Below are positions 12,613-12,861 of a stretch of DNA of 35,105 nt, one piece after another; position 1 is the stretch's first letter, and the number at the start of each line of letters is the position of its first letter. A program made the translations under genes and the position numbers. The notes below the pieces were generated by a model. It did not search any database. It was not told the DNA's origin and saw only the letters and a program-made list of their open reading frames with translations. The DNA is taken from IMG/VR virus record IMGVR_UViG_2711768044_000007, positions 1-35,105 of that record; one strand, given 5' to 3'. Source of the stretch: a virus (lineage: Duplodnaviria; Heunggongvirae; Uroviricota; Caudoviricetes).

Positions 12613-12861
12613 GTGGTAACAGATAACCGCTCACTGATGAGTAGTGCTCATCAGAAGGCATTCAGTCTTGCAACACAGTTACCTCCTGAAACCATAAAAG
12701 CGTGTCGTGAGTTGACTGAACTCAGCATTGCCGGGGAAATATCCCTGGAACAACTGCATTCGCTGCTGGCAGAGGCTGCCACTGATGAGTTGAGCGGCGT
12801 GGACGTGATGACTGAAGAGCTTGAGTCCCGAATCAAAAGCATTCTGACAGGTAAAGCCTGA
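12613..12861 (+). CDS. small hypothetical protein sharing a C-terminal motif with the preceding gene
   Basis: 82 aa, GTG start with strong AGGAGGTG RBS; C-terminus DELSGVDVMTEELESRIKSILTGKA parallels DELRGVDGMSEQIEFRIRQMLLGKA of the upstream protein. Confidence 0.45.
   Translation: MVTDNRSLMSSAHQKAFSLATQLPPETIKACRELTELSIAGEISLEQLHSLLAEAATDELSGVDVMTEELESRIKSILTGKA

What the first reader, a model, noticed from the sequence alone, without database searches (positions are those of the whole stretch)
12613..12861. Small ORF with strong RBS duplicating the C-terminal motif of the putative small terminase
The 82-aa ORF between the small and large terminase genes ends with DELSGVDVMTEELESRIKSILTGKA, matching the C-terminus of the upstream 193-aa protein (DELRGVDGMSEQIEFRIRQMLLGKA). 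It has its own AGGAGGTG RBS and a GTG start. This could be a partial gene duplication producing a competing or regulatory fragment (if the motif is the large-terminase interaction tail) or a remnant of module exchange.
Basis: seen in the sequence. Interest (0 to 1): 0.45.

Follow-up and report, generated by a model that had tools for sequence, protein, structure and literature searches.

The report
Chimeric small ORF between terminase genes
A small, fast-evolving, dispensable gene sits between the two DNA-packaging genes of an E. coli Mu-like prophage; its last 31 residues are a leftover copy of the small-terminase tail, most likely a scar of recombination between phage lineages and not a conserved regulator.

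Summary
The 82-aa ORF (12613-12861) ends with a 31-33-residue copy of the C-terminus of the upstream Mu gp27-type small terminase (BLASTP 18/31, E 3e-10; profile-profile E 3e-9). It has a strong SD. Its stop overlaps the large-terminase start (TGATG).

It is an optional insert. 231 complete E. coli genomes carry this prophage locus, and only 25 have the ORF. In most other copies, and in Mu-type Yersinia and Vibrio phages, gp27 abuts TerL directly.

The ORF is a chimera:
- Residues 1-34 match the start of a different 67-aa ORF found in a third version of the junction. That ORF has no tail.
- Residues 52-82 are gp27-derived.

The two tails differ at saturating synonymous distance (dS about 2.5, against 0.13-0.20 in the flanks). 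This argues for recombination between diverged lineages and against a recent duplication.

No relatives exist outside this E. coli prophage lineage. Constraint is weak (omega about 0.5, against 0.03 for gp27), yet the SD, the start and the stop/start overlap are kept in all 12 alleles.

Best reading: a translated recombination scar that relays translational coupling to TerL. A TerL-binding decoy role is untested and less likely. Interest is low to moderate.

The parts
12021..12602 (+). gp27-type small terminase (193 aa, DUF3486 / Phage_Mu_Gp27)
   Evidence: Pfam PF11985 E 3e-33 over residues 12-193; phrog_426 'terminase small subunit' E 9e-55; omega 0.027 among alleles.
12507..12602 (+). tail 1: gp27 residues 163-193 (MANAVTDELRGVDGMSEQIEFRIRQMLLGKA) plus the TAG stop. 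Its last 13 codons are an atypical version of the family tail.
   Evidence: None of 45 distinct tails of E. coli/Salmonella gp27 cluster representatives has IEFRIRQM; their consensus is ..SE[QE]LE[AS]RI[KR]G[VI]LLGKA.
12601..12608 (+). Shine-Dalgarno AGGAGGTG for ORF82, overlapping the gp27 stop codon
   Evidence: It is conserved (GGAGGTG) in all but two of the alleles read; the exceptions are GGGGGTT (L004) and AGAGGTG (L016).
12613..12861 (+). ORF82 (82 aa; phrog_30922; annotated 'hypothetical protein' at the same position in RefSeq E. coli genomes, e.g. WP_000255658.1 in JE86-ST02, a close allele)
   Evidence: All 12 unique alleles are intact. AlphaFold2 predicts four helices, mean pLDDT 73.5.
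12613..12765 (+). ORF82 N-part (residues 1-51). It is low in GC. Residues 1-34 are homologous to the N-terminus of ORF67 (P0012) of junction type C. Residues 35-51 have no known origin.
   Evidence: GC 47.7% and GC3 43%, against 56-59% and 59-67% (84% in the gp27 tail) in the flanks. ORF67 alignment. phrog_30922 also hits ORF67 at E 3e-14.
12766..12861 (+). tail 2: ORF82 residues 52-82 (LAEAATDELSGVDVMTEELESRIKSILTGKA) plus the TGA stop; a gp27-derived remnant
   Evidence: It is closer to the tail of the ORF-less ('short') form (76/96 nt, 22/31 aa, dS 0.52) than to tail 1 in the same genome (62/96 nt, dS 2.5).
12859..12863 (+). TGATG: the ORF82 stop overlaps the TerL start codon. In the short form gp27 itself has the same arrangement with TerL.
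   Evidence: The overlap is kept in every long-form allele read, as ..TGATGA.. or ..ATGATGA..
12861..14525 (+). large terminase TerL (554 aa)
   Evidence: phrog_2 'terminase large subunit' E 6e-43. No Pfam or NCBIfam hit.
12861..12920 (+). hypervariable first ~20 codons of TerL; the right end of the replaceable cassette
   Evidence: 65% nt identity to the short form, against 96% for the rest of TerL. Four different N-termini occur in types S, L, C and Salmonella.

Best explanation
ORF82 is a lineage-restricted, dispensable, chimeric small gene made by recombination at the gp27/TerL junction of an E. coli Mu-like prophage.

Origin (inferred). The 5' part of a small accessory ORF, with its own SD and start, came from a donor lineage that also supplied the atypical last 13 codons of the resident gp27. 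That 5' part was joined in frame to the 3' end of a second, diverged gp27 allele that already sat in front of TerL.

Resulting layout (shown). The junction reads gp27 - SD - ORF82 - TGATG - TerL.

How it works (inferred). ORF82 is translated from its own SD within the late transcript. Ribosomes terminate at the TGA that overlaps the TerL ATG. ORF82 therefore takes over the role of upstream cistron for translationally coupled TerL synthesis, a role gp27 plays in the ORF-less form. On this reading, selection mainly keeps the SD, the start, an open frame and the stop/start overlap. The amino-acid sequence, including the gp27-like tail, drifts under weak constraint.
For: 1. Optional element. The locus is in 231 of 5426 complete E. 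coli genomes, but ORF82 DNA is in only 25. The short form lacks exactly 259 bp, and there gp27 overlaps TerL by TGATG. Muvirus Yersinia phage vB_YpM_5 and Vibrio phage ZX4290 also have gp27 abutting TerL.
2. Mosaic cassette. Identity to the short form is ~96% in the gp27 body and in TerL, but falls from gp27 codon ~180 to TerL codon ~20. GC drops to 42-48% there.
3. Chimera. Residues 1-34 match ORF67 of junction type C, which has the same gp27 tail 1 and SD but no tail 2. Only residues 50-82 match gp27.
4. Not a recent duplication. Tail 1 versus tail 2 gives dS 2.5 and dN 0.28, while the flanks give dS 0.13-0.20. The 3' half of tail 2 resembles the family consensus, and the 3' half of tail 1 is the outlier.
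5. Weak protein constraint. Omega is 0.54 (N-part 0.65, tail 0.37), against 0.027 for gp27 and 0.08 for TerL. The 53 variable sites split 15/17/21 by codon position, and the tree-based omega is 0.51.
6. Expression signals are kept. The start position is the same in all alleles (ATG in most, GTG in the window), the SD is kept, the stop/start overlap is kept, and all 12 unique alleles are open. The only length variants in otherwise intact alleles are in frame: -6 nt in L027/P0002 and -3 residues in P0003.
7. No separate transcription unit. There is no promoter-like site, and the only terminator-like hits in 11400-13400 lie outside the ORF, at a rate close to that of shuffled sequence.
8. No relatives elsewhere. 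The 5.8-billion-protein search returned 11 clusters; those carrying a source name are E. coli, and the rest are unnamed ENA/Logan sequences 81-96% identical. An exhaustive HMM search of 1.84 billion representatives found only this family. There were no hits in one genome per species of 185,579 species.
9. The slot repeatedly hosts unrelated small ORFs whose stop overlaps the TerL start, such as Salmonella ORF87 with ATGA.
Against: - Openness of the frame is not statistically compelling on its own. Neutral simulation leaves all 12 alleles stop-free in 10.5% of runs.
- Omega is below 1, and lower in the tail (0.37). The tail keeps 11 of 14 gp27-invariant tail positions checked (hand count). Some selection on the protein itself is therefore possible.
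- Translation and coupling are inferred from sequence only.
- TerL has a weak SD-like AGGT 8 nt upstream of its ATG, so coupling may not be obligatory.
- No extant donor gp27 with a tail close to tail 2 was found.
- The order of events is not resolved: short form ancestral and cassette gained, or short form produced by deletion between the two tails.
- Salmonella ORF87 shows that a duplicated tail is not needed to keep the overlap.
Confidence: 0.55

Rival explanations
1. ORF82 is a functional TerS-tail mimic. Its gp27-like helix-loop-helix tail docks on TerL, as the TerS C-terminus does in lambda and P22. The protein would then modulate packaging as a competitor, a holding factor or an adaptor between TerL and another partner bound by the N-terminal three-helix part.
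For: - The tail homology is significant and ends exactly at the C-terminus.
- 11 of 14 gp27-invariant tail positions checked are kept (hand count).
- The tail is more constrained than the N-part (omega 0.37 against 0.65).
- The helix-loop-helix prediction is the same for both tails.
- The ORF is predicted to fold as four helices at pLDDT 73.5 from a very shallow alignment.
- The TerS C-terminus binds the TerL N-terminus in lambda and P22 (PMC9611059).
- The N-part is shared with ORF67 at omega 0.3-0.47 across dS ~0.4-0.6, which suggests a real coding module.
Against: - The ORF is absent from ~89% of sibling prophages and from Mu, Yersinia and Vibrio relatives.
- Codon-position use is nearly neutral and omega is ~0.5.
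- gp27-invariant G176, S178 and M163 are lost, and G173 is polymorphic (G/S) among alleles.
- No one has shown that the gp27 tail is the TerL-binding element in Mu-type terminases.
- ORF67 carries the same N-part without any tail.
- There were no fold or family hits.
Confidence: 0.2
2. The tail copy arose by tandem duplication across the gp27/TerL junction within one genome, followed by divergence. The ORF would then be TerL-N-terminus-like sequence fused to the gp27 tail.
For: - The repeats are direct and 259 bp apart.
- ORF82 residues 9-46 show weak ungapped similarity to TerL residues 1-38: 12/38 identical, shuffle P 0.002 for the best of six comparisons.
- DNA-level local matches are marginal, P 0.02-0.05.
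Against: - The synonymous distance between the tails is saturated (dS 2.5) although the ORF is confined to a lineage whose flanks differ by dS 0.13-0.2.
- The N-part is clearly homologous to ORF67, not to TerL.
- The TerL similarity vanishes against the short-form TerL (P 0.2-0.5) and does not survive correction for multiple tests.
- The N-part has no similarity to gp27 upstream of the tail.
Confidence: 0.07
3. The ORF is not translated at all, and the segment is non-coding filler. What matters would be an RNA or DNA element, for example the hairpins at 12572-12594 and 12634-12654.
For: - Evolution is nearly neutral.
- The 101-nt stretch 12560-12660 folds better than all 200 shuffles, z -3.5.
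- A hairpin is present at about the same place in most alleles, in different sequence versions, including type C.
Against: - A strong SD sits at optimal spacing, the start codon is conserved (ATG/GTG), and the stop/start overlap is kept in all alleles.
- The only length variants in otherwise intact alleles are in frame.
- The hairpin is only in the top ~3% of 40-nt windows of this 35-kb window.
- Its register shifts between alleles, so this is not true covariation.
- There is no Rfam match.
Confidence: 0.1

Closest known systems
Mu gp27 / DUF3486 (Pfam PF11985, phrog_426) small terminase C-terminus
   Same: The last 31-33 residues of ORF82 are homologous to the family's conserved C-terminal helix-loop-helix (..TDELRG.DGMSE.LE.RI...LLGKA) and end at the same terminal GKA.
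   Different: ORF82 lacks the N-terminal HTH and the long central helices, which make up 160 of 193 residues. It gives no PF11985 hit even at E 10. It cannot be a small terminase.
C-terminal TerL-binding tails of lambda gpNu1 and P22 gp3 small terminases
   Same: Position and type of element: a short, flexible, C-terminal, helical segment of TerS encoded immediately upstream of TerL. In those phages it binds the TerL N-terminus (PMC9611059). This is the basis of the 'decoy' reading.
   Different: There is no sequence relationship. No experiment shows that the Mu-type gp27 tail binds TerL. No phage-encoded free-standing copy of such a tail is known to me (own knowledge, not tested).
Mosaic 'novel joints' and morons of temperate phage genomes (Hendrix, Juhala and colleagues; recalled from memory, not read here)
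   Same: Presence/absence polymorphism among otherwise ~95% identical genomes, lower GC than the flanks, a location at a gene boundary, and an ORFan product.
   Different: Classical morons carry their own promoter and terminator, and none is seen here. This joint lies inside coding sequence and produced an in-frame fusion that preserves the downstream start overlap.
Satellite-encoded terminase-hijacking proteins (SaPI TerS and Ppi, PICI Rpp; own knowledge)
   Same: Small proteins that act on the TerS/TerL partnership. They are a functional analogy for the decoy reading only.
   Different: They are encoded by satellites, not by the phage itself. There is no sequence similarity, and PADLOC and PHROG searches gave nothing.
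phrog_30922 (unknown function)
   Same: ORF82 matches the whole 82-position profile at E 2.5e-53. ORF67 matches its first 55 positions, and the gp27 tail matches its positions 51-82.
   Different: The family has no annotation, so membership names the ORF without explaining it.

Membership tests
Phage_Mu_Gp27 / DUF3486 small terminase (PF11985) | Match to the full-length profile (173 positions: N-terminal HTH, central helices, C-terminal tail) above the gathering score | tested here: not met
   ORF82 gives no PF11985 hit even at E <= 10. hhalign aligns only ORF82 columns 50-82 with gp27 columns 161-193. The upstream 193-aa protein does meet this feature (116 bits against a cut-off of 28).
Phage_Mu_Gp27 / DUF3486 small terminase (PF11985) | Conserved C-terminal tail motif ending in LLGKA | tested here: met
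   18/31 identical to the resident gp27 and 22/31 to the short-form gp27 tail. 11 of 14 invariant tail positions checked are kept (hand count).
phrog_30922 (unknown function) | Full-length match to the profile | tested here: met
   E 2.5e-53, residues 1-82 on profile positions 1-82.
Moron (independently transcribed accessory gene in a prophage) | Presence/absence polymorphism and deviant base composition | tested here: met
   Present in 25 of 231 locus-bearing genomes. GC is 47.7% in the N-part against 56-59% in the flanks.
Moron (independently transcribed accessory gene in a prophage) | Own promoter and terminator | tested here: not met
   No sigma-70-like promoter in 11400-13400 and no terminator flanking the ORF. 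This was a consensus scan only.
Translationally coupled upstream cistron | Stop codon overlapping or abutting the downstream start, conserved across alleles | tested here: met
   TGATG or ATGATGA in every long-form allele read. The same geometry holds for gp27/TerL in the short form and for ORF87/TerL in Salmonella.
Translationally coupled upstream cistron | Downstream translation depends on upstream translation | not testable with these tools
   This needs nonsense-mutant reporter or Ribo-seq data. RNA folding around the TerL start shows no unusual structure (z +0.97).
TerL-binding TerS tail (lambda gpNu1 / P22 gp3 type) | Physical binding of the tail to the TerL N-terminal region | not testable with these tools
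   There is no multimer prediction or experiment. The only support is analogy from PMC9611059.

The most novel reading that the evidence does not exclude
ORF82 is a phage-encoded, free-standing mimic of the small-terminase C-terminal tail. It would bind TerL stoichiometrically, being co-translated with it through the TGATG overlap. It would tune or gate terminase assembly, for example by keeping TerL inactive until the gp27/pac complex displaces it, or by making TerL refractory to the TerS of co-resident Mu-like prophages, which often occur in several copies or types per genome. The repeated appearance of unrelated small ORFs in the same slot would then reflect a hotspot for packaging modulators.
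Probability: 0.12. Interest if true: 0.6.

Novelty: new member of a known kind. Interest (0 to 1): 0.27.

Why it matters
It is a clean, datable example of how phage mosaicism creates a new protein-coding gene. An in-frame fusion joined an accessory ORF's 5' end to a leftover 3' end of an essential gene, and the fusion was apparently tolerated because it preserves the translational hand-over to the next essential gene. It also marks the gp27/TerL boundary of enterobacterial Mu-like phages as a recurrent insertion slot, with at least three different small ORFs.

If the gp27 tail proves to be the TerL-docking element, natural alleles with and without a free tail copy give a ready-made test of TerS/TerL stoichiometry in Mu-type terminases, which are uncharacterised structurally. 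As it stands, it is an ordinary kind of phage ORFan with a traceable origin.

Tried and rejected
- Homology of the ORF82 N-part to gp27 upstream of the tail: none by BLASTP, hhalign or DNA Smith-Waterman with shuffles.
- Homology of the N-part to the TerL N-terminus (tandem-duplication model): best P 0.002 in one of six comparisons, others 0.02-0.5, DNA level P 0.02-0.05. Judged chance or inconclusive, given the clear ORF67 homology.
- Search for a donor gp27 with a tail like tail 2, or for other tail-only mini-proteins, using a 48-aa query against 5.8 billion proteins at E <= 10: only the ORF82 family came back. The first attempt failed on a parameter limit.
- Exhaustive profile search of 1.84 billion representatives: only family members or fragments, plus ORF67 and one spurious repeat protein.
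- Other species: none in one genome per species. Isolated phages: no full-length tblastn hit; only gp27 tails of Mu, Yersinia, Shigella, Vibrio and Stx-phage-borne Mu-like elements, plus noise.
- Readthrough or frameshift fusion of gp27 to ORF82: excluded, because a TGA at 12607-12609 closes the ORF82 frame just upstream of the start.
- Family and fold searches for function: Pfam at E 10, NCBIfam, PADLOC and Foldseek against the PDB all gave nothing meaningful. The gp27 sequence has no relative in the PDB.
- Rfam and promoter/terminator scans: nothing.
- Apparently disrupted alleles. P0011 is a junction with a baseplate gene on a 2-kb Logan contig. P0010 is a frameshift near the end of a 1.5-kb contig. 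P0008 could not be located. These were too unreliable to count as pseudogenes.
- Salmonella ORF87 as a second tail-bearing ORF: the visual resemblance (E.LRG...GK) was not supported by BLASTP.
- gp27 AlphaFold model: low confidence (pLDDT 55), used only for secondary structure.

Full report
**Setting.** The window is a Mu-like prophage. The late-gene order is lysozyme, spanins, TraR/DksA zinc finger (11150-11443), DUF2730 (11424-11735), a gp26-like winged-helix protein (11728-12018), gp27/DUF3486 (12021-12602), the 82-aa ORF (12613-12861), a 554-aa large terminase (12861-14525) and the Mu-type portal (14516-16114). The closest DNA is in E. coli chromosomes, at 98.6% identity.

**Observation.** The ORF, its GTG start, the AGGAGGTG just upstream and the shared C-terminal motif are all present as described.
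- BLASTP aligns gp27 163-193 with ORF82 52-82: 18/31 identical, no gaps, both to the last residue, E 3e-10.
- A profile-profile comparison of the two families gives 33 aligned columns, probability 96%, E 3e-9, and nothing further upstream.
- The DNA of the two tails is 62/96 identical.
- The ORF's TGA overlaps the TerL ATG (TGATG).

**An optional insert.**
- Megablast of 11700-13100 finds the locus in 231 of 5426 complete E. coli genomes (270 places). Only ~25 records match over the full length. The rest lack a block that measures exactly 259 bp between fixed anchors.
- A search with the ORF-specific DNA confirms 25 genomes and 29 places.
- In the short form, gp27 ends ...SEQLESRIKGILLGKA and its TGA overlaps the TerL ATG.
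- gp27 also abuts TerL directly in a Muvirus (Yersinia phage vB_YpM_5) and in a Vibrio Mu-like phage.
- Short and long forms are ~96% identical in the gp27 body and in TerL. They diverge from about gp27 codon 180 to TerL codon 20. Each form has its own gp27 last-13 residues and its own TerL N-terminus.
- GC falls to 47.7% in the ORF N-part and 41.7% in TerL codons 1-20, against 56-59% in the flanks.

**A chimera.**
- The exhaustive profile search returned a 67-aa protein, P0012. Its first 34 residues are ~75% identical to ORF82 1-34, but its C-terminal half is unrelated and has no gp27 tail.
- Its locus (L029) is a third junction type. It has the same gp27 with the same atypical tail and the same SD, then ORF67, then a 120-nt gap holding an antisense 39-aa ORF with a strong SD, then TerL with a third N-terminus.
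- ORF82 is therefore built from three pieces: an N-part shared with ORF67 (residues 1-34), 17 residues of unknown origin, and a gp27-derived tail.

**Origin of the tail.**
- Tail 1 versus tail 2 in the same genome gives dS ~2.5 (saturated) and dN 0.28.
- Tail 2 versus the short-form tail gives dS 0.52. Tail 1 versus the short-form tail gives dS 1.1, with the differences concentrated in the 3' half of the tail.
- The flanking genes differ by dS 0.13-0.20.
- Among 45 distinct tails of E. coli and Salmonella gp27 cluster representatives, the consensus is ..SE[QE]LE[AS]RI[KR]G[VI]LLGKA. The 3' half of tail 2 (EELESRIKSILTGKA) fits it, whereas the resident gp27 tail (QIEFRIRQMLLGKA) is the outlier.
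- The simplest history is that a donor segment (new last 13 codons of gp27, the SD and the 5' part of a small ORF) was joined in frame to the tail of a resident, diverged gp27 allele in front of TerL. This makes the tail a remnant of module exchange and not a recent duplication.
- The direction is not proven. The short-form tail is a 5' tail-1-like / 3' tail-2-like hybrid (43/48 and 39/48 identities). That pattern also fits deletion between the repeats.
- A tandem-duplication model predicts homology of the spacer to the TerL 5' end or to the gp27 body. Only marginal similarity was found.

**Distribution.**
- The 5.8-billion-protein search returned 11 clusters. Those that carry a source name are E. 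coli; the others are unnamed ENA or Logan sequences at 81-96% identity.
- The index-free HMM search of 1.84 billion representatives added only ORF67.
- One genome per species of 185,579 species gave nothing.
- IMG/VR and metagenomes gave only 93-98% identical copies.
- No isolated phage carries the ORF.
- It belongs to phrog_30922, of unknown function. RefSeq calls it a hypothetical protein.

**Selection.**
- Among 7-12 unique alleles, omega is ~0.5 (N-part 0.65, tail 0.37), against 0.027 for gp27 and 0.08 for TerL.
- The 53 variable sites are spread 15/17/21 over codon positions.
- All alleles are open, but neutral simulation gives that outcome in 10.5% of runs.
- Against ORF67, the N-part has omega 0.3-0.47 at dS 0.4-0.6.
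- The expression frame is what stays conserved. The SD is kept, the start is at the same position (ATG in most alleles, GTG here), the stop/start overlap with TerL is in every allele, and the only length variants in otherwise intact alleles are in frame.

**Structure and function searches.**
- AlphaFold2 predicts four helices (5-22, 25-39, 45-60, 68-79) at mean pLDDT 73.5. The tail forms a helix-loop-helix.
- The low-confidence gp27 model gives the same helix-loop-helix for its tail.
- Foldseek against the PDB, Pfam, NCBIfam and PADLOC give nothing.
- Rfam and promoter/terminator scans are empty.

**Mechanism.** I infer that ORF82 is translated within the late transcript and hands ribosomes to the TerL start at the TGATG overlap. 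It thereby replaces gp27 as the coupled upstream cistron. This would explain why the frame and signals are kept while the sequence drifts. A Salmonella relative carries an unrelated 87-aa ORF in the same slot whose stop also overlaps the TerL start. The slot therefore tolerates inserts that keep this geometry.

**The decoy idea.** This reading rests on analogy with lambda and P22, where the TerS C-terminus binds the TerL N-terminus (PMC9611059), and on the retention of most invariant tail residues. It remains possible. It is weakened by the ORF's dispensability, its near-neutral evolution and the existence of the tail-less ORF67.

**Verdict.** The 'module-exchange remnant' reading is supported, and the 'competing fragment' reading is untested and less likely. 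This is a new member of a known kind (a mosaic-junction ORFan), and interest is low to moderate.

Noticed in passing
L029 4001-4330 (Logan SRR34397675 contig; also L030-L033): A third junction type: gp27, then ORF67 (P0012), then a 120-nt gap, then TerL with a different N-terminus. The gap and the ORF67 3' end carry a convergent antisense 39-aa ORF (4181-4300, minus strand) preceded by a strong GAGAGGAGAG SD. It has no family hits. It might be a small accessory or toxin-like gene pair.
   Followed up: partly
L036 3087-3356 (Salmonella enterica GCA_021239545.1; also L037, L038): Salmonella Mu-like prophages carry an unrelated 87-89-aa ORFan in the same gp27/TerL slot. Its stop overlaps the TerL start (ATGA). 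It has no similarity to ORF82 or gp27 and no family hit. Other Salmonella copies (L039-L041) have no insert.
   Followed up: partly
window 12572-12594 and 12634-12654: Two hairpins flank the ORF82 start. One lies in the atypical 3' half of the gp27 tail. The other is a perfect 8-9-bp stem (CTGATGAGT AGT GCTCATCAG) in ORF82 codons 8-14. The 101-nt stretch has z -3.5. Most other alleles, including type C, form a hairpin at about the same place with different stem sequences and a shifted register. This stretch is also the most divergent part of the ORF. Quasi-palindrome template-switch mutation or an RNA element are both possible. The hairpin ranks only in the top 3% of 40-nt windows.
   Followed up: partly
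window 12861-12935 (TerL codons 1-25): The extreme N-terminus of TerL is hypervariable in sequence and length across junction types, before the conserved PPRKIDL.GEKALLGVDVP. Among long-form alleles all differences there are non-synonymous (dN 0.053, dS 0), but the numbers are small.
   Followed up: partly
window 12011-12023 (G-run before the gp26 stop and the gp27 start): One Logan protein (P0015, 291 aa) is a gp26-gp27 fusion, explained by one extra G in the GGGGG run just before the gp26 TAA. It occurs once, so it is probably a homopolymer sequencing error and not a programmed frameshift.
   Followed up: no
window 12861-14525: The large terminase has no Pfam-A or NCBIfam match at all. Only PHROG profiles recognise it, and RefSeq annotates it as a hypothetical protein.
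   Followed up: no
L001 (LC727895.1) and LC727881.1: Short-form copies of this Mu-like element are annotated as insertions inside Stx1a- and Stx2c-converting phage genomes. Several E. coli genomes hold 2-4 copies of the locus, and up to 3 copies of the ORF82 form (JE86-ST05). This suggests recent transposition activity.
   Followed up: no
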